Positions 3,520-14,535 of a stretch of DNA of 14,535 nucleotides are shown here, piece after piece (position 1 is the first letter of the stretch; each line of letters starts with the position of its first letter). The translations under genes and the position numbers were made by a program. This stretch comes from a virus (lineage: Duplodnaviria > Heunggongvirae > Uroviricota > Caudoviricetes): the IMG/VR virus record IMGVR_UViG_2534681705_000018, positions 1 through 14,535 of that record; one strand, 5' to 3'. The notes under the pieces were generated by a model that saw only the letters and a program-made list of their open reading frames with translations, searched no databases and had not been told where the DNA came from.

Positions 3520-4047
3520 TCATTGATGGCCTGATTTTTCCCACTCAGCCAGGGCGTTTAGTCCGGCTTCACTCCAGTTATCCAGCTCATCGGGACAATC
3601 ACCTGCAACATAGCAGAGCTCACAACGCAGCATACGAATTGCCAGCCTGGCATTTTCCCGAAAATCATACTGCTCAAAGTAATATTGCCCAGCATAATCC
3701 TCAAGGCAGATAGCACCATCATCAAGAAATTGCACTTCACAGCATAATTCCCCGGCTGCATCCTGCACACGCTGCTGTATGTCATCGTCCGTTACTGGTG
3801 CAGGGATTTTACCGTCTCTGGCCTTAACTGCTTTCCAGAACTCGCCCCACGTCATTTCCAGCGTTCTCTCTGGCCACATTTCAGAAACGGGGTTTTTTCC
3901 CTGTGCTGGTGGGCTGTTCCGCTGCTCTGTCGCTTCCACATCAATTTTTTTGCCAGACATGATCACTTCGCCTTTCTCGATCCAGTCGTAAACTGTCTGG
4001 CGGCTTACGCCTTTGTGTTTGGCATATTCTGCCTTGCTCATCAGCAT
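3520..4047 (-). CDS. HTH protein resembling a small terminase subunit N-terminus; candidate TerS-like or Rpp-like packaging redirection factor.
   Basis: The N-terminus MSKAEYAKHKGVSRQTVYDWIEKGEV is a Nu1/TerS-style HTH. GGTGAG lies about 7 nt upstream of the ATG. The gene is 6 nt downstream of the preceding gene and directly abuts the repeat array. Confidence 0.55.
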   Translation of the reverse strand: MLMSKAEYAKHKGVSRQTVYDWIEKGEVIMSGKKIDVEATEQRNSPPAQGKNPVSEMWPERTLEMTWGEFWKAVKARDGKIPAPVTDDDIQQRVQDAAGELCCEVQFLDDGAICLEDYAGQYYFEQYDFRENARLAIRMLRCELCYVAGDCPDELDNWSEAGLNALAEWEKSGHQ

Positions 4048-4053
4048 TATGAC

Positions 4054-4725
4054 TCACCCTTCTTTTTCCAGTTGAGCCAGCCGCCCGGATATTTCTTCCA
4101 GTTTTTCCAGGGCTGGCTTGCAGGCCGCATCAATAACATCCCGGACCATTCCGGCAAGCTGCTCTTCTGCTGTCGGCGTTGTTACTTCCACACCCGATGG
4201 TTTCCCTCCCTTATCCCATACACCCAGCGGTACGAGGGCAACGTGATCGATAAGAAATGGCGTACCCTCAATGACAAAATTGTCCTCGCCCATTACATCA
4301 GGAACTTCTGCCCCACCGGACGCACCACAAAACACAACCGACGGGCTGGTGGATACCTCCCCCCGGGCTTTCTGGATGTAATCGATGATTTCCTGCCCGT
4401 AAATCCGGCATACGCCCCACACCTCGTCATCGCGAATATACGGCAACATAACGGTGCCAATAATGCGCGACCGTTCGCCCACGTCTTCAATGGTTTTGCC
4501 TTCGGGATGGTCGATAATGACGGGTACTCCGGCGCAACGTTCCAGGAACTGCGGATTGAGATAAGTTTGCGGTGAACGCCAGACAAATTCTTTTTCTTCG
4601 GCGCGGTAGGCCATTCCGGTTCCTGTGATACGCAGGTTAACCAGCCACATGTTGGAGAACTGATAAGGCGACGGTAGCTGACCGTCCCGAATCTGCTTCG
4701 CCGCCTCAATTTCTGTTAAAAGCAT
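4054..4725 (-). CDS. Phage prohead protease/scaffold-like protein (DUF2213/XkdF-like pattern).
   Basis: GVPVIIDHPEGKTIEDVGERSRIIGTVMLPYIRDDEVWGVCRIYGQEIIDYIQKARGEVSTSPSV resembles the His...Gly...Ser core pattern of HK97-type prohead proteases. The C-terminus is coiled-coil-like (LEKLEEISGRLAQLEKEG). Assignment is by eye only. Confidence 0.45.
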   Translation of the reverse strand: MLLTEIEAAKQIRDGQLPSPYQFSNMWLVNLRITGTGMAYRAEEKEFVWRSPQTYLNPQFLERCAGVPVIIDHPEGKTIEDVGERSRIIGTVMLPYIRDDEVWGVCRIYGQEIIDYIQKARGEVSTSPSVVFCGASGGAEVPDVMGEDNFVIEGTPFLIDHVALVPLGVWDKGGKPSGVEVTTPTAEEQLAGMVRDVIDAACKPALEKLEEISGRLAQLEKEG

Positions 4726-9550: not shown

Positions 9551-9908
9551 GATTCACCCCCTGAATAACCTGATAACCGCAACTGGTCAGCAATTCGATA
9601 AATTCCGGCAATGTGCCGAAACAGTAATCATCACGCAGACGTTCGCGGGATACTTCAACGCCGTTTTCGTAGTGACTCACCATGCGTCCGGTAAAATGCA
9701 GATCATCATCGTGATGGCACGTTAACGGCTTAATCAGTCGCGCACGTTCTGCCAGTTCCAGCAATGCTTCAACGCTTCCGGCAATTGCACCATCCGGCAG
9801 GTTGTAATTACGCACTATGCGCCCGTTCTCCACATGGACCAGTAGCTGCCCGGTAAATTTCTCGTCAAACTGAATGCGGTTAAGGTCGGTAAGTGACAGG
9901 TTAATCAT
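9543..9908 (-). CDS. Hypothetical protein (121 aa) with two copies of the FTG repeat domain.
   Basis: The start overlaps the Icd-like stop (ATGATTAA). The two internal copies are EKFTGQLLVHVENGRIVRNYNLPDGAIAGSVEALLELAERA and LHFTGRMVSHYENGVEVSRERLRDDYCFGTLPEFIELLTSC. Confidence 0.65.
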   Translation of the reverse strand: MINLSLTDLNRIQFDEKFTGQLLVHVENGRIVRNYNLPDGAIAGSVEALLELAERARLIKPLTCHHDDDLHFTGRMVSHYENGVEVSRERLRDDYCFGTLPEFIELLTSCGYQVIQGVNHG

Positions 9909-10104
9909 GGCGTACCTCCTGACGAATACGGGCGGCGAATACCATCACGCAGCCATCAGGAGATTGCTGGCGTGCTTCCTGTTCGCTGGTGGCCTCGATG
10001 TGAATCACGCGCGGTTGTGCCGTGCTCAGAGCGATAAAACGCCAGATGTATTTATTCAGGTTGTGCGAGTCCCGCCCTTGCGGGTGTGTGGTATGATTTC
10101 TCAT
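9901..10104 (-). CDS. Host cell division inhibitor Icd-like protein (67 aa).
   Basis: MRNHTTHPQGRDSHNLNKYIWRFIALSTAQPRVIHIEATSEQEARQQSPDGCVMVFAARIRQEVRHD. The pattern IEATSE.EAR....FAARI recalls Icd-like proteins of P4-type elements. It has its own SD (GAGG, 5 nt upstream of the ATG at 10104). It lies in frame at the 3' end of the 402-codon ORF. Confidence 0.6.
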   Translation of the reverse strand: MRNHTTHPQGRDSHNLNKYIWRFIALSTAQPRVIHIEATSEQEARQQSPDGCVMVFAARIRQEVRHD

Positions 10105-11109
10105 AGCTACCTCGATAATCTTGCTATCGTTGGTGGTTAGAAGCTCTGCGAGTGGTAACGACACTTGCGGGGCTTTGCCTTTAAGGTGCAAGTCACCTTT
10201 GAGGGTTATGCTACTTTTAGGTGACTTGCACTTCAAGCCTTTTTTTATTTTTTTTTCTACGTATACTGAACGCCACCTAACAGTAAGGAGGCCAGTAATG
10301 CCAACGGGTACAACCAACAACAAATCACAACAAAAAACGGCTAGAATCCCTCTAGAAGTTTTAAGCGAAATGAATTTGGTCAAAGAGGAAAACGAAACAG
10401 ACGCGCAGTTTATCGTTACAGCCATGCGTGGCGAGATCAAACGCCGCCAGCGCCGCAAGGCCAAAGAACAGGAGTAACCATCACCAGCGCCGTGGTGTGA
10501 GGAACTACGGTGCATCGTTTTACAGGGCAGCGCCATGACCAACAAAGAATCAACCAAAACACCATCACCAACTCGTAAGAGACGACGCAAAAATATAGCG
10601 CATGAACATGAATCAGAAAGATTCGCACCTTGTTCGTTTGCTCTTGAGAAATTCCTTAAAGAGCACAGGAAAAAGCTCTCGTTGCAAACCTTGGAACGAA
10701 CCAAATCTGACTGATCACATTGCCCACCAGCCGCAAATGTGGCATTGTTGGTGATGCGTTCAAGTATGTAGCTTTTCCACTGGCGGCTCTCTGCGGTCGC
10801 CTTTGTTTTATCCAGAACGAAATCAGACATCAGATTGATCAGCACCTGGCGACCTGACAAAATCGCATCAGTCGCGCCACCAGCAAAATTTTTTGCTTTC
10901 CGGACAGCGTGGCCAACGATATTTTGCAGCAAAATATTCTGCATTTCTGGCGTGCTGTGGCGACGGTGATCAGCGCCTTCACATTGAACGAACTTGTCGC
11001 TAAAATTCACCCACATAGCAAACATCGCGGTGCTGTAGGTAATTCGTTCACAAAGGCGCTCCGGCAACGGGGCGCTTTCTCTTTTTGTAACGGTCAGAGC
11101 GTTACACAT
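9901..11109 (-). CDS. 402-codon ORF as drawn, probably composite. Only the first ~140 codons (about 10690-11109) look like a genuine protein.
   Basis: The ATG at 11109 overlaps the antirepressor stop (ATGTGTAA), which suggests translational coupling. The N-terminal part looks protein-like. The middle ~200 codons are Cys/Ser/Leu/Arg-rich and cross the operator hairpin, a T-run and the antisense of the SD-bearing RHH gene. The last 67 codons are the Icd-like gene. Confidence 0.35.
   Translation of the reverse strand: MCNALTVTKRESAPLPERLCERITYSTAMFAMWVNFSDKFVQCEGADHRRHSTPEMQNILLQNIVGHAVRKAKNFAGGATDAILSGRQVLINLMSDFVLDKTKATAESRQWKSYILERITNNATFAAGGQCDQSDLVRSKVCNESFFLCSLRNFSRANEQGANLSDSCSCAIFLRRLLRVGDGVLVDSLLVMALPCKTMHRSSSHHGAGDGYSCSLALRRWRRLISPRMAVTINCASVSFSSLTKFISLKTSRGILAVFCCDLLLVVPVGITGLLTVRWRSVYVEKKIKKGLKCKSPKSSITLKGDLHLKGKAPQVSLPLAELLTTNDSKIIEVAMRNHTTHPQGRDSHNLNKYIWRFIALSTAQPRVIHIEATSEQEARQQSPDGCVMVFAARIRQEVRHD
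10185..10232. promoter_or_regulatory. Paired palindromic operators forming a 13-bp perfect inverted repeat in the divergent control region.
   Basis: GTGCAAGTCACCT (10186-10198) and AGGTGACTTGCAC (10219-10231). Each arm is itself GGTG-N5-CAC(C). The centres are about 34 bp apart. The repeat lies between the Icd-like start (10104, minus) and the RHH start (10298, plus). Confidence 0.55.
10298..10477 (+). CDS. Ribbon-helix-helix protein (59 aa), transcribed divergently from the replication operon.
   Basis: A consensus SD, TAAGGAGG, lies 7 nt upstream of the ATG at 10298. KTARIPLEVLSEMNLVKEENETDAQFIVTAMRGEI fits the RHH pattern and is followed by a basic tail. TATACT lies about 30 nt upstream. 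Confidence 0.55.
   Translation: MPTGTTNNKSQQKTARIPLEVLSEMNLVKEENETDAQFIVTAMRGEIKRRQRRKAKEQE
10535..10714 (+). CDS. Possible small basic protein (59 aa), below the ORF-track cutoff.
   Basis: Hand translation gives MTNKESTKTPSPTRKRRRKNIAHEHESERFAPCSFALEKFLKEHRKKLSLQTLERTKSD. It is in the same plus frame as the RHH gene, separated by a single TAA. The SD is weak. It is antisense to the long minus ORF. Confidence 0.3.
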   Translation: MTNKESTKTPSPTRKRRRKNIAHEHESERFAPCSFALEKFLKEHRKKLSLQTLERTKSD

Positions 11110-11950: not shown

Positions 11951-12028
11951 AAAAACTCCTGCTATCGAATTAAGTTACTTTTATTTGCTGGTGGATAGCT
12001 GGGGGCTTCTGGCCCCGTAGCCATTTAA

Positions 12029-12226
12029 TCAGGTAGCTGTTCCGCGTGATTCAGCAATACGCTGATTAATCCACTCGTCAATTTCACTCTCAACGAAAGC
12101 AATCGCTCGCGAGCCAATTTTAACTGATGCAGGAAATTTACCTTGCCCCATAAGGCGATAAATCCATGCCTTGCTATATCCAGTTCTACGCTGAACTTCC
12201 GTTAAACGAATAAGCGTATTTGACAT
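12029..12226 (-). CDS. alpA: AlpA-family (CP4-57 regulatory protein-type) HTH regulator or excisionase.
   Basis: LIRLTEVQRRTGYSKAWIYRLMGQGKFPASVKIGSRAIAFVESEIDEWI is the canonical Phage_AlpA pattern. GAGG lies 8 nt upstream of the ATG. Confidence 0.9.
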   Translation of the reverse strand: MSNTLIRLTEVQRRTGYSKAWIYRLMGQGKFPASVKIGSRAIAFVESEIDEWINQRIAESRGTAT

Positions 12227-12328
12227 ATATTTACCTCATAACGTCTACTCAATTTGACGAGGTAATCATGGCACAGAAATAACGAATATTTTCATACCCT
12301 CAGGCCTAATGGTAATCGGGAATATTTT

Positions 12329-12441
12329 TACCCTAAGGGTAATAGTAAAATTGATGGGAAAGCATACAAAAATACCCTAAGGGTGAGGTCTGATTACCCT
12401 TAGGGTGAGACGCGAACAAAACATGAGATACCACTAGGGTA
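12329..12441. promoter_or_regulatory. Array of four 13-bp palindromes upstream of alpA: operators and/or an RNA terminator hairpin.
   Basis: TACCCTAAGGGTA (12329-12341), TACCCTAAGGGTG (12373-12385), TACCCTTAGGGTG (12395-12407) and TACCACTAGGGTA (12429-12441). A half-site, TACCCT, is at 12295. On the minus-strand transcript, copies 3 and 2 can pair (11-bp stem, 11-nt loop) and are followed by ATTTTTGT. Confidence 0.6.
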
Positions 12442-12446
12442 AGGCT

Positions 12447-13193
12447 TCATCGTTTGATAGGACAGGCGACAAGCTCAATAGATGCGGCCTGTCGGGAGGT
12501 AAAACCTCGTTTTTCAAGCTCAGTAGTAATCGCGCCCTGGTTTCCCCTGGTGGCGCGCTCATTTTCCGGATCGTAATTGGCCCACTCTCTGTTTCTAATC
12601 TCGATAGCCAGATACAATGGGTCATCATCTCTGTATTTATTTAATAGAATTGGACGTTCGCTTTCGAGTTTGCGGATTTGCTCTTTAAGTGAAGAAATTT
12701 CCGCAAGTAACACTTCAATATTCTGTTCATCATCCAGAAACTCATTATCAACCACATCAGAAGTTGGTAGAGTTATTTCACTTAATGGTAAAAATAAATC
12801 AATGCCTATTTTCTCTGCAAATTCTTTAAGTTCTGCACGACGAAACCCATGCTTATCAAAAAGGCTTGCCGACCATCTTACATCACAATTTTGAAAAGGT
12901 GCGAATAATGCTATAGGCACACTATTTCTTTCACGAATAACTTCCAGGAGGTCTGTTAAAGTAGGGGCACTATTATATTGATTGGAAAGATCGACATATG
13001 TTGATTCAATAGTACCGGCAATACCTTGCTTAACCCATTCAGGAAGTTCAATCGCACATTCTTTCAAGTAAAGAAAATCTGCAATCTGTGAATAACTAAC
13101 ATGCGGTTGATGTAATTGAATACGAGTTATCAACTCCCTCAGGCTAATAAACTCCCACTCCCTTGCTTTAAGCACTTCGGCAATATCAATCAT
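12447..13193 (-). CDS. Mosaic orphan protein (248 aa): unknown N-terminal domain, coiled coil, and an HTH-like C-terminal tail.
   Basis: The ORF-track start at 13274 is a GTG. The ATG at 13193 has GAGGTG 5 nt upstream (MIDIAEVLKAREW...). The coiled coil is VLLAEISSLKEQIRKLESE. The C-terminus RGNQGAITTELEKRGFTSRQAASIELVA looks like a helix-turn-helix. Hand-counted GC is 21/60 at 12721-12780 and 33/60 at 12481-12540. Confidence 0.6.
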   Translation of the reverse strand: MIDIAEVLKAREWEFISLRELITRIQLHQPHVSYSQIADFLYLKECAIELPEWVKQGIAGTIESTYVDLSNQYNSAPTLTDLLEVIRERNSVPIALFAPFQNCDVRWSASLFDKHGFRRAELKEFAEKIGIDLFLPLSEITLPTSDVVDNEFLDDEQNIEVLLAEISSLKEQIRKLESERPILLNKYRDDDPLYLAIEIRNREWANYDPENERATRGNQGAITTELEKRGFTSRQAASIELVACPIKR

Positions 13194-13320
13194 ACGCACA
13201 CCTCGGCGTCCTCTGTAGTGGTGGCTGTGCCAGCCCGCAGAGGTGTACGGGTTTTCAGGAGCGACCCTAGACACAGCCTTTTCTTAATCGCTCAAAGTCT
13301 ACTACTGTATACTCAACCAG

Positions 13321-14535
13321 TCACCCGCATTTTCCGAACTCACCATGCACCACATTTCCGCCATGCTCGAGCGAATCCATATAGTCGGCATACCACTGGA
13401 GCATCTCCCGGCGACCATCCAGATATTGCGCATGGTTGTATGTGCCACGAATTGAGTTTTTATCGACGTGTGCGAGCTGTGTCTCTATCCACGCGGTGTT
13501 ATAGCCCTGCTCATGCAAAATGGTGCTCATGGTGTGCCGGAATCCATGACCAGTAACGCGCCCGGCATAGCCGATACGACGAATGAGCACATTCATCGCC
13601 ATTTCACTCATTGGCTTACTGTGGTGAATACGACCGGGGAAAATAAACTGATACTGGCCTGTCATGTTTTTTAACTGCTCCAGTATTTTTATCGCCTGTT
13701 CTGGTAATGGCACACAATGCGGACGGCGCATCTTCATTCGTTCTTTAGGCACTTCCCACAAACGATTATCAAAATCGATCTCCAGCCATTCTGCCTGCCG
13801 TAATTCCCCGGGTCTGACACCTGTCAGAATTAATAGCCGCATTGCCAGTTTGACGATCTGGCTTCCGGTGTACGTATTAAAAACGCGGAAAAATTCCGGC
13901 AGTTCGTCGGCTTTCAAATAGGCGTAATGCTCTTTTTTATGTGGAGCAAATGCGCTCACCAGGTCAGGGGCTGGATTATATTCGGCGCGTCCGGTGATGA
14001 TTGCGTACCGGAACACCTCGCCGCATCGCTGGCGAACCTTACGCAATTTTTCAGTCGCACCACGGTCATTAAGACGGGAAAGAACCGCCAGCAATTCCAT
14101 CGGCTTAATTTCTGCGATCGGCCTACCGCCAATGTACGGAAAAACATCTTTTTCAAACGTCTCGATCATTTCCTCGGCGTATGACGATGACCACCTGTCG
14201 ATCCGCTTTTCGTACCATTCGCGAGCAATACCCTCAAAAGTATTGCCAAATTTGCTCGCCTGTTCTCGCTTTTGGGCTTTTCTGGCCTCACTTGGATTTA
14301 TACCACCAGCAAGAAGCCTTTTAGCCTCATCCCTTGCCGCCCTGGCATCAGACAGAGACACATCAGGGTATACCCCCAACGACAACATTTTGGGCTTTCC
14401 TGCAAACCTGTAGCGCAGTCGCCACCCTTTCGAACCGTTCGGCTCAATGAGCAACGAAAGCCCGTTACCGTCATTGAGTGTATAAGCCTTTTCTTTCGGC
14501 TTCGCGCGCCTGATGGCAAGGTCTGAAAGCAGCAT
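13321..14535 (-). CDS. int: P4/CP4-57-type tyrosine integrase (tRNA-targeting family).
   Basis: The N-terminal arm-binding-type region is LSDLAIRRAKPKEKAYTLNDGNGLSLLIEPNGSKGWRLRYRF. Catalytic-region motifs are TGVRPGELRQAEW, HGFRHT and IRGTYNHAQY. This is the full 404-aa ORF, and the window ends on its ATG. Confidence 0.95.
   Translation of the reverse strand: MLLSDLAIRRAKPKEKAYTLNDGNGLSLLIEPNGSKGWRLRYRFAGKPKMLSLGVYPDVSLSDARAARDEAKRLLAGGINPSEARKAQKREQASKFGNTFEGIAREWYEKRIDRWSSSYAEEMIETFEKDVFPYIGGRPIAEIKPMELLAVLSRLNDRGATEKLRKVRQRCGEVFRYAIITGRAEYNPAPDLVSAFAPHKKEHYAYLKADELPEFFRVFNTYTGSQIVKLAMRLLILTGVRPGELRQAEWLEIDFDNRLWEVPKERMKMRRPHCVPLPEQAIKILEQLKNMTGQYQFIFPGRIHHSKPMSEMAMNVLIRRIGYAGRVTGHGFRHTMSTILHEQGYNTAWIETQLAHVDKNSIRGTYNHAQYLDGRREMLQWYADYMDSLEHGGNVVHGEFGKCG

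What the first reader, a model, noticed from the sequence alone, without database searches (positions are those of the whole stretch)
12447..13193. Mosaic orphan gene in the integrase-proximal cargo slot
The only gene between int and alpA has no family I can recognise. It is compositionally split. About 200 N-terminal codons are AT-rich (21/60 GC at 12721-12780). The last ~50 codons, an HTH-like tail, together with the downstream palindrome array, have host-like GC (33/60 at 12481-12540). In P4-like satellites the integrase-proximal locus is a known hotspot for variable anti-phage cargo. In SaPI-type satellites the master repressor (Stl) pairs a DNA-binding module with a variable helper-sensing module. 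The gene could therefore be a single-gene defence or abortive-infection module. It could instead be a helper-sensing regulator whose conserved tail binds the adjacent palindromes. Neither type is described for this sequence family as far as I can tell.
Basis: partly seen in the sequence, partly recalled or inferred. Interest (0 to 1): 0.75.

Follow-up and report, generated by a model that had tools for sequence, protein, structure and literature searches.

The report
Modular regulator candidate upstream of satellite alpA
The unknown gene between the integrase and alpA of this E. coli phage satellite is a fusion of two small genes; its conserved tail always travels with a set of DNA palindromes in front of the satellite's master switch alpA, so it is probably the missing regulator of that switch, not an immunity gene.

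Summary
A 248-aa ORF (12447-13193, minus strand) has no Pfam, NCBIfam, PADLOC, PHROG or PDB relative. It is AT-rich for about 195 codons, then host-like. Five palindromes (ACCCTnAGGGT) follow it, upstream of alpA. The "HTH" label is not confirmed: the tail is a small three-helix bundle with no convincing structural match.

The element is a Gram-negative PICI-type satellite, not P4-like. The gene is not an orphan. Across Enterobacterales and Orbaceae the int-alpA slot holds two genes, A (~100-123 aa) and B (~150 aa); here they are fused.

The tail, palindromes and alpA form a near-identical block in E. coli. The first ~195 codons are swapped between islands.

In 80 loci with AlpA at least 77% identical, all 39 with the tail have the palindromes and all 41 without it have none. 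This includes loci with 97%-identical AlpA. A distantly homologous tail sits beside different palindromes.

Best reading (about 0.55): a dimeric, operator-binding regulator of the alpA promoter with an exchangeable input module. It is functionally analogous to SaPI Stl but unrelated in sequence. A single-gene defence role is not excluded (about 0.12).

All evidence is comparative. DNA binding has not been shown.

The parts
13321..14535 (-). Tyrosine integrase (404 aa), the first gene of the co-directional int - slot - alpA unit
   Evidence: Pfam Arm-DNA-bind_3, Phage_int_M and Phage_integrase. Related E. coli islands sit next to tRNA-Gly.
13210..13277 (-). Rfam RF02996 'int-alpA RNA' motif. 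It forms the 5' leader of the slot gene, and its last model positions are the gene's Shine-Dalgarno sequence.
   Evidence: 47 bits against a gathering score of 35.8, E 3e-8. The same motif ends about 15 nt before the first slot gene in 15 of 18 related loci, whatever gene type follows.
12888..13193 (-). Residues 1-102: the 'A-like' variable N-terminal module. It is a separate ORF in most other genera.
   Evidence: Alignments; separate A ORFs. It is 26-68% identical in DNA to other E. coli islands, whereas the flanks are 94-100% identical. AlphaFold confidence is low.
12780..12872 (-). Residues 108-138: conserved N-terminal motif of the 'B' part (FDxYGFRRxEL..A..G.DL)
   Evidence: Conserved in all short forms. 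A weakly similar motif opens the B' proteins of another slot type (E 0.0045, 27 columns; suggestive only).
12654..12731 (-). Residues 155-180: leucine-zipper-like coiled coil (L159, I163, L166, I170, L173), presumed to mediate dimerisation
   Evidence: AlphaFold helix 155-179, pLDDT up to 92. Only coiled-coil matches in the PDB and Pfam. One homologue is annotated 'bZIP transcription factor' by RefSeq.
12450..12653 (-). Residues 181-248: the conserved tail domain (three-helix bundle), the proposed operator-recognition domain
   Evidence: It contains most invariant and near-invariant columns of the family. It is 100% identical in DNA to other E. coli islands over 12450-12550. It co-occurs with the palindromes in 39 of 39 loci.
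12295..12441 (.). Operator-like array: four 13-bp palindromes (12429-41, 12395-407, 12373-85, 12329-41; start-to-start spacing in the direction of transcription 34, 22 and 44 nt) and a wide palindrome TACCCTCAGGCCTAATGGTA (12295-12314, plus strand as written) next to the putative alpA promoter
   Evidence: In a phylogenetic footprint across 8 genera or lineages the invariant columns fall on the half-sites while the spacers diverge.
12265..12273 (-). Putative extended -10 element of the alpA promoter (TGcCATGAT). Inferred only.
   Evidence: The block TGTGC(A/C)ATGAT is conserved in the alignment. The generic sigma-70 scan found no consensus promoter on this strand.
12232..12264 (-). alpA leader hairpin that pairs the alpA Shine-Dalgarno sequence (UACCUCGU...AUGAGGUA)
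   Evidence: An SD-sequestering stem is predicted in 18 of 20 alpA leaders of different sequence.
12029..12226 (-). alpA (65 aa), the satellite's master activator and the presumed target of regulation
   Evidence: Pfam Phage_AlpA 2.4e-19. Its role as master activator of Gram-negative PICIs is taken from PMC6092414 and PMC11773190.

Best explanation
The ORF is an in-frame fusion of the two small genes (A and B) that occupy the integrase-alpA slot in one lineage of Gram-negative phage-inducible chromosomal islands.

Proposed mechanism:
1. The B part dimerises through a short leucine zipper.
2. Its conserved C-terminal three-helix tail recognises the ACCCTnAGGGT palindromes, which begin 5 nt after its own stop codon and run up to the alpA promoter.
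3. It thereby sets the expression of AlpA, the activator that launches the satellite cycle. A repressor or roadblock role is more likely; activation is possible.
4. The AT-rich N-terminal ~195 codons are an exchangeable input module. Recombination between the conserved int-alpA RNA leader and the conserved tail swaps this module between islands. It presumably determines which helper-phage signal releases alpA.

Shown here:
- the fusion
- the mosaic boundaries
- the conserved synteny
- selection on the palindromes
- the strict tail-palindrome association, independent of AlpA

Inferred:
- DNA binding by the tail
- the sign of regulation
- helper sensing
For: 1. Synteny. int -> (A,B or a fusion) -> palindromes -> alpA is found in E. 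coli, Raoultella, Pantoea, Symbiopectobacterium, Photorhabdus, Xenorhabdus, Orbaceae, Proteus, Yersinia and Salmonella.
2. Mosaic structure. Against other E. coli islands, 12000-12600 is 94-100% identical, 12650-13200 is 26-68% identical, and 13250 onward is 94-100% identical. The tail plus palindromes occurs in 148 of 5426 complete E. coli genomes. The variable part occurs in 1, at 74% identity.
3. Association. Among 80 viral-contig loci with AlpA at least 77% identical, all 39 with the tail have 2-5 motif copies upstream of alpA. All 41 without the tail have none, including five loci with 97%-identical AlpA. EcCIMP1 has an AlpA with the same HTH sequence as a palindrome-bearing Yersinia locus. 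It has neither the gene nor the array.
4. Specificity of the array. The paired-palindrome pattern hits 25 places in 2.9 million viral contigs, and 20 of these are this locus.
5. Footprint. The half-sites are invariant across genera while the spacers diverge. The 22- and 44-nt spacing (same helical face) is kept.
6. Covariation of tail and sites. A divergent but homologous tail (hhalign E 7e-5, 62 columns) sits beside different inverted repeats (GGTGGG...CCCACC) at the equivalent positions. The Orbaceae tail (RGNQ changed to RPTQ) sits beside ACTATnATAGT-type sites.
7. The A-like module also occurs with another B type that lacks these palindromes. The sites therefore follow the tail, not A.
8. 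Architecture. A zipper plus a small helical domain, with no enzymatic domain.
9. Literature. The cis region upstream of alpA carries helper responsiveness. No repressor is known for Gram-negative PICIs (PMC6092414, PMC11773190).
Against: - No experiment and no recognisable DNA-binding fold. Structure searches return only generic bundles.
- The tail is not basic (pI 6.8; whole protein 4.8).
- The tail and the palindromes are physically contiguous, with the first site 5 nt after the stop codon. Perfect co-occurrence could therefore be plain linkage.
- Several other slot-gene types show no obvious palindromes, so the 'regulator plus operator' logic is not general for the slot.
- Most sites lie far upstream (about -78 to -178 from the guessed start site). 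That position is unusual for a simple repressor.
- The window's fused allele is rare and lacks the acidic C-terminal tail that separate A proteins carry. Its input function may differ or be lost.
Confidence: 0.55

Rival explanations
1. The palindromes are operators for another protein: AlpA autoregulation, a helper-phage activator or a host factor. On this view the tail is conserved only because it lies inside the conserved recombination block. The protein itself does something else, for example it engages replication or recombination proteins, as the SSB-tail look-alike of the separate A proteins suggests.
For: - AlpA activates its own promoter in EcCICFT073 and EcCIMP1.
- The tail and the sites are contiguous, so linkage alone could produce the association.
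- The tail has no recognisable DNA-binding fold and is not basic.
- The separate A proteins end in DFDDDIPF-like tails.
Against: - AlpA 97% identical, and AlpAs with an identical HTH, occur with completely different upstream regions that lack the motif.
- The tail is the most conserved protein segment of the whole cassette across genera, more conserved than neutral linkage would explain.
- A divergent tail goes with different repeats at the same positions.
- No homologue of the protein occurs in 50,697 phage genomes.
Confidence: 0.2
2. The gene is stand-alone anti-phage cargo, a single-gene defence or abortive-infection module in a variable integrase-proximal hotspot.
For: - The int-alpA slot is hypervariable. 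At least nine C-terminally unrelated gene types of about 225-385 aa occur among islands whose AlpA is at least 77% identical.
- The variable part has an AT-rich, foreign composition.
- Satellites are known to carry defence hotspots (PMC9122126, listed).
- In SaPI2 the regulator Stl2 itself confers immunity (PMC11846896, abstract). Regulator and defence roles are therefore not mutually exclusive.
Against: - No PADLOC, Pfam or NCBIfam match.
- No enzymatic, NTPase, nuclease or membrane features. The protein is all-helical with a zipper.
- It is a conserved syntenic component across many genera, with a conserved cis array, unlike swappable cargo.
Confidence: 0.12
3. The window's allele is a decaying fusion or pseudogene with no function. 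A deletion joined A to B and removed A's functional C-terminus.
For: - Relative to the two-gene form (E. coli RMDEC465), about 50 nt are missing. These cover A's DDSDDIPY tail, the stop codon and the B start codon.
- The allele is rare: 1 distant match in 5426 genomes.
Against: - The ORF is intact, in frame and has a good Shine-Dalgarno sequence.
- A 99% identical protein occurs in other E. coli (cluster of 21 sequences), and there is an 82% identical fused variant.
- Other fused forms are common in E. coli. The P0053 cluster has 336 sequences and includes O104:H4 and strain 55989.
Confidence: 0.08

Closest known systems
Stl / Rpr master repressors of SaPIs and other Gram-positive PICIs
   Same: - A satellite-encoded regulator located next to the integrase.
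- A conserved DNA-recognition part joined to a highly variable part.
- The variable part couples satellite induction to a helper phage (Stl facts from PMC6092414 and PMC6695447).
- The mosaic pattern seen here (constant tail and operator, swapped remainder) matches that logic.
   Different: - No sequence or fold relationship.
- Stl has an N-terminal HTH and is transcribed divergently from the operon it represses. Here the candidate DNA-binding part is C-terminal, has an unknown fold, and the gene is co-directional with int and alpA.
- The target is the promoter of an activator (AlpA), not the whole operon.
- Repression and helper binding have not been tested.
Gram-negative PICIs (EcCICFT073, EcCIMP1): int-alpA 'integration zone'
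   Same: - The same element type: int, alpA, AntA/Bro-type gene, Icd/Ash-like gene, D5-type primase, ProQ/FinO, TerS-like gene, all co-directional.
- AlpA is 81% identical to that of EcCIMP1.
- alpA is the helper-induced master activator.
   Different: - In EcCIMP1 the slot holds only a 67-aa ORF of unknown role and no ACCCTnAGGGT array.
- The published descriptions do not assign a regulator to the slot. They state that a repressor is not known.
Rfam RF02996 int-alpA RNA motif
   Same: It is present at 13210-13277 above the gathering score.
   Different: Rfam lists it as an sRNA, a candidate of unknown function. Here and in 15 of 18 related loci it ends about 15 nt before the start codon of the slot gene and includes that gene's Shine-Dalgarno sequence. 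It therefore looks like a cis-acting leader of the slot gene(s).
Anti-phage hotspot of P4-like satellites (between psu and int)
   Same: An integrase-proximal locus with high turnover, flanked by conserved sequence.
   Different: - The element shows no Psu, Delta or Sid match in Pfam or PHROG scans of its ORFs.
- The gene has no defence-family match.
- It is tied to a conserved cis array at the alpA promoter.
bZIP / leucine-zipper DNA-binding proteins
   Same: A short heptad-repeat zipper lies next to a putative DNA-recognition element, and the targets are palindromic. One homologue is annotated 'bZIP transcription factor'.
   Different: There is no basic region N-terminal to the zipper. The candidate recognition domain is a globular three-helix bundle C-terminal to it.

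Membership tests
SaPI Stl / Gram-positive PICI Rpr repressors | N-terminal HTH (XRE/Cro-type) DNA-binding domain | tested here: not met
   No HTH family in Pfam or NCBIfam; the only PHROG hit is an 'HTH' family at E=0.42 over 20 residues. The conserved candidate DNA-recognition domain is C-terminal.
SaPI Stl / Gram-positive PICI Rpr repressors | Transcribed divergently from the operon it represses, with the operator in the divergent intergenic region | tested here: not met
   int, the ORF and alpA are all on the minus strand. The palindromes lie between the ORF's stop codon and the alpA start codon.
SaPI Stl / Gram-positive PICI Rpr repressors | Repression relieved by direct binding of a helper-phage protein | not testable with these tools
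   This needs pull-down or two-hybrid assays and reporter assays.
Gram-negative PICI (element level) | Co-directional int, alpA and primase/replication genes, tRNA-type att site, no phage tail or lysis genes, size about 10-20 kb | tested here: met
   - int, alpA and a D5-type primase are all on the minus strand.
- A TerS-like gene and a protease/scaffold-like gene are present, but no tail or lysis genes appear in the 14.5-kb window.
- Sister islands abut tRNA-Gly.
- The far end of the island is not in the window.
P4-like satellite | [quoted passage not shown] | tested here: not met
   Pfam and PHROG scans of all large ORFs returned no Psu, Delta or Sid family. Bases 1-800 of the window and anything beyond it were not examined.
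Known anti-phage defence systems (PADLOC-DB) | Match to any defence-protein model | tested here: not met
   0 families at E<=10.
Rfam RF02996 int-alpA RNA (for the leader, not the protein) | Covariance-model score above the gathering threshold | tested here: met
   47.0 bits against 35.8, with the full model 1-71 matched.

The most novel reading that the evidence does not exclude
The int-alpA slot may encode the long-sought helper-sensing switch of Gram-negative PICIs. It would be a two-part system. A is a bait protein that, in its free form, ends in a mimic of the SSB C-terminal tail (DFDDDIPF). B is a zipper dimer whose tail occupies palindromic operators at the alpA promoter. A helper-phage protein that normally docks on the host SSB tail, for example a single-strand annealing recombinase, would bind A, release B from the operators, and let AlpA fire. 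The window would carry a fused, bait-less variant with a different input specificity. The Rfam int-alpA RNA would be the leader that sets the level of this regulator.
Probability: 0.15. Interest if true: 0.85.

Novelty: new variant of a known kind. Interest (0 to 1): 0.62.

Why it matters
It is an open question how Gram-negative PICIs sense their helper phage. The literature read here says that alpA is switched on by an unidentified helper signal and that no island repressor is known (PMC6092414, PMC11773190).

This locus supplies a concrete, testable candidate:
- an uncharacterised protein family with its own conserved operator array at the alpA promoter
- an exchangeable input module
- a known but unexplained RNA motif as its leader

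If confirmed, it would:
- give Gram-negative satellites a counterpart of Stl
- explain helper specificity by module swapping
- assign a role to RF02996

It would also supply parts (operator plus binder) for engineering PICI-based delivery vehicles.

Tried and rejected
- Family assignment. Pfam, NCBIfam, PADLOC and PHROGs on the protein gave nothing usable. A profile search against PDB sequences returned only coiled-coil noise.
- Pfam on 70 family representatives and on 10 alternative slot proteins gave only coiled-coil families and one DUF6387.
- Structure. Two AlphaFold runs (pLDDT 62.6 for the full length, 73.1 for residues 103-248) and three PDB fold searches found no convincing analogue. 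The afdb50 library was unavailable.
- YfjH of prophage CP4-57, which also lies between intA and alpA, was considered as a counterpart. It was rejected because it is on the opposite strand and was not among the homologues.
- EcCIMP1_002 was considered as a homologue. The EcCIMP1 slot has no related ORF or array.
- The GTG-extended ORF (12447-13274) was rejected as the true start. The extension is the translation of the int-alpA RNA motif and is closed by stop codons in several related loci.
- The idea that every slot type has its own palindromes holds only for some types (X type, L066 type, L073 type). It is not general.
- Phage genomes hold no homologue.
- Literature searches found no paper that describes this gene family or a Gram-negative PICI repressor.
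- Clustering the N-terminal parts by BLAST was uninformative, because the shared mid-motif links most of them.

Full report
**The observation**

The window is one co-directional (minus-strand) block. It contains:
- int, 13321-14535
- a 248-aa ORF, 12447-13193
- alpA, 12029-12226
- an AntA-family gene
- a 402-aa Icd/repressor-like gene
- DUF4222
- a D5-type primase
- ProQ/FinO
- a DUF2213 protease-like gene
- a TerS-like gene

This is the gene set of a Gram-negative phage-inducible chromosomal island (PICI), as described in PMC6092414, PMC10111431 and PMC13612085. No Psu, Delta or Sid was found, so 'P4-like' is the wrong frame.

The ORF has a GAGG Shine-Dalgarno sequence 6 nt before its ATG. 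It has no match in Pfam, NCBIfam or PADLOC, and only an E=0.42 PHROG hit.

- Codons 1-175: GC3 0.25.
- Codons 176-248: GC3 0.43.

The 220-nt gap before alpA holds four 13-bp palindromes of the form YACCCTnAGGGTR, at 12429, 12395, 12373 and 12329. It also holds a wide palindrome at 12295-12314. No such sites occur elsewhere in the window, and none of 200 shuffles reaches the observed count.

**The gene is not an orphan: it is a fusion**

A search of 5.8 billion proteins found 56 relatives. A profile search of 1.84 billion representatives found 89 clusters. This is a small but real family.

Most relatives outside E. coli are about 150 aa long and match only residues ~103-248. Genomic context shows why.
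- Proteus, Yersinia, Salmonella, Raoultella, Pantoea, Symbiopectobacterium, Orbaceae and one E. coli strain carry two ORFs in the slot.
- A (~100-123 aa) is homologous to residues 1-~100 of the window protein. B (~145-153 aa) corresponds to the rest.
- In Proteus the two ORFs overlap by 4 nt.

A DNA alignment with the two-gene E. coli form shows that the window lacks about 50 nt. The missing stretch covers A's C-terminus, its stop codon and the B start codon, which gives a clean in-frame fusion. Other fused forms are common in E. coli. One cluster has 336 sequences, and O104:H4 and strain 55989 carry fused forms.

**Anatomy of the protein**

AlphaFold (pLDDT 62.6 for the full length, 73.1 for residues 103-248) gives the following parts.
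- A poorly defined N-terminal module.
- A short conserved motif, FDxYGFRRxEL..A..G.DL.
- A disordered acidic linker.
- A confident long helix at 155-179 with a, d-position L/I residues (a leucine zipper).
- A three-helix bundle at 192-243.

Nearly all invariant residues of the family lie in the three-helix bundle.

**Mosaic structure**

Identity of the window to three E. coli sister islands:

| Window coordinates | Content | DNA identity |
|---|---|---|
| 12000 to ~12600 | alpA, palindromes, tail | 94-100% (two of the three islands) |
| 12650-13200 | variable part of the ORF | 26-68% |
| 13250 onward | leader and int | 90-100% |

The third island (O104:H4) also has a diverged allele of the tail and the palindromes.

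The tail-plus-palindrome segment occurs in 148 of 5426 complete E. coli genomes. The variable segment occurs in one, at 74% identity. The compositional step is a recombination boundary.

**What the palindromes go with**

Three proteins are encoded beside the array: Int, the ORF and AlpA. I collected 80 viral-contig loci whose AlpA is 77-100% identical to the window's. I scored each for the tail and for ACCCTnAGGGT (up to 1 mismatch) in the 320 nt upstream of alpA.

| Loci | Number | Motif copies upstream of alpA |
|---|---|---|
| With the tail | 39 | 2-5 in every locus |
| Without the tail | 41 | 0 in every locus |

Further points:
- The tail-less group includes five loci with 97%-identical AlpA.
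- EcCIMP1's AlpA has the same HTH sequence as that of a palindrome-bearing Yersinia island. EcCIMP1 has neither the gene nor the array.
- The A-like module also occurs with a different B type (L111, L116) that lacks these sites. The sites therefore track the tail, not AlpA and not A.
- Searching 2.9 million viral contigs for two palindromes 9-14 nt apart gave 25 hits. Twenty were this locus.
- In an alignment of eight lineages, the invariant columns fall on the half-sites while the spacers diverge. The 22- and 44-nt spacing is retained.
- A divergent tail type (L066 group) is homologous by profile comparison (E 7e-5, 62 columns). It is followed by different inverted repeats (GGTGGG...CCCACC) at the equivalent promoter-proximal and stop-proximal positions.
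- The Orbaceae tail sits beside ACTATnATAGT-like sites.

The main caveat is physical linkage. The first site starts 5 nt after the stop codon, so co-inheritance alone would give a perfect association.

**Mechanism proposed**

The protein dimerises through the zipper and binds the palindromic array by its tail. It thereby controls the weak alpA promoter.

A conserved TGcCATGAT could be an extended -10 element. In that case the wide palindrome would cover about -57 to -38, and the other sites would centre near -78, -122, -144 and -178. These promoter positions are inferred.

int, the ORF and alpA are co-directional. A bound array would therefore also block read-through into alpA.

AlpA is the helper-induced, self-activating master switch of these satellites. 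No repressor or inducer is known. The swappable N-terminal ~195 residues are the natural candidate for the input that couples the switch to a helper.

I rate an operator-binding regulator of alpA at about 0.55. Within that reading, a repressor is more likely than an activator. Helper sensing is inference.

**Rivals**

- Another protein binds the sites and the tail is merely linked: 0.2.
- Stand-alone defence cargo: 0.12. The slot is indeed hypervariable, with at least nine unrelated gene types. This gene, however, has no defence signature, and it is conserved in synteny across genera.
- A dead fusion: 0.08.

No homologue exists in 50,697 phage genomes.

**Comparison with known systems**

Functionally the closest analogue is Stl/Rpr of Gram-positive PICIs, which also combines a constant DNA-recognition part with a variable helper-binding part. 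The defining Stl features are not met: there is no N-terminal HTH and no divergent transcription. This gene therefore works like Stl at most; it is not a member of that family.

The leader is a bona fide member of Rfam RF02996.

None of the papers I could search describes this gene family.

**Verdict**

The feature is real. It belongs to an uncharacterised family and has a plausible, testable role at the centre of an open question. All evidence is comparative.

Noticed in passing
window 13210-13277 (-); also L002, L003, L005-L008, L011, L012, L014, L016, L073, L078, L111, L116, L121: The Rfam 'int-alpA RNA' motif (RF02996, function unknown) lies directly upstream of the slot gene. Its 3' end includes that gene's Shine-Dalgarno sequence. 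In 15 of 18 related loci it ends about 15 nt before the first slot gene, whichever gene type follows. It therefore looks like a cis-acting leader rather than a free sRNA. The reading frame through it (…PENPYTSAGWHS…) is open and in frame in several loci, but closed by stop codons in others.
   Followed up: partly
L005 3920-4369, L006 4001-4321, L007 4001-4306, L011 3108-3428, L012 2705-3004, L014 2659-2985, L016 2608-2979, L001 14909-15229 (-), L111 760-1206, L116 1220-1597: All ten free-standing 'A' proteins examined end in an acidic stretch plus (I/V)P(F/Y). Examples are MDFDDDIPF, DFDDDIPF, DDDDVPF, DFDFDIPF, GEIPF and DDSDDIPY. This looks like the C-terminal protein-docking tail of bacterial SSB (E. 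coli SSB ends MDFDDDIPF; own knowledge). The window's fused protein has lost this tail. It could be a bait or decoy for proteins that dock on SSB.
   Followed up: partly
window 12232-12264 (-); alpA leaders of L005-L008, L011, L014, L016, L066, L073, L075, L078, L084, L092, L095, L111, L116, L121: A hairpin that pairs the alpA Shine-Dalgarno sequence with an upstream anti-SD is predicted in 18 of 20 alpA leaders of quite different sequence. The stems covary, for example CUCCUGUAG/CUACAGGAG and UCUCCCGU/ACGGGAGA. This suggests translational silencing of alpA on read-through transcripts. The window's leader alone is not significant against shuffles (z = -0.76). The same inverted repeat could instead be a DNA site for AlpA.
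   Followed up: partly
L044-L123 (viral contigs), region between int and alpA: Among islands whose AlpA is at least 77% identical, the int-alpA slot holds at least nine C-terminally unrelated gene types (225-385 aa). None has a Pfam family apart from one DUF6387. One type (L073, L095) is followed by two perfect ACCGCAATTGCGGT palindromes. Others show no obvious repeats.
   Followed up: partly
window 9901-11109 (-): In the window this is one 402-aa ORF whose C-terminal 80 residues match PHROG 'transcriptional repressor' families (Icd-like). In sister islands the region is split into Icd-like and Ash-like genes and carries the isrK and C4 antisense RNAs (P1/P7-type immunity RNAs). Rfam finds neither RNA in the window.
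   Followed up: no
L004 18858-19284 (E. coli MP1, EcCIMP1): The experimentally studied PICI EcCIMP1 has a nearly empty int-alpA slot (427 nt). It holds only the 67-aa 'EcCIMP1_002' once mis-annotated as UvrB, with a single GGGTAGAGCTACCC inverted repeat and no int-alpA RNA hit above the gathering score. Even so, its -449 to +50 alpA reporter responds to the helper phage (PMC11773190).
   Followed up: partly
H32, NZ_CM142775.1 1041408-1041756: One E. coli homologue of the gene is annotated 'bZIP transcription factor' in RefSeq, presumably because of the leucine-zipper segment. All others are annotated 'hypothetical protein'.
   Followed up: no
L001 (E. coli RMDEC465) 3716-4138 (-): This sister island encodes its own small SSB, which ends in DDPYGDNIPF. 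It also has two IS insertions (IS110 in the primase gene, and IS66). The window has no SSB gene among the ORFs scanned.
   Followed up: no
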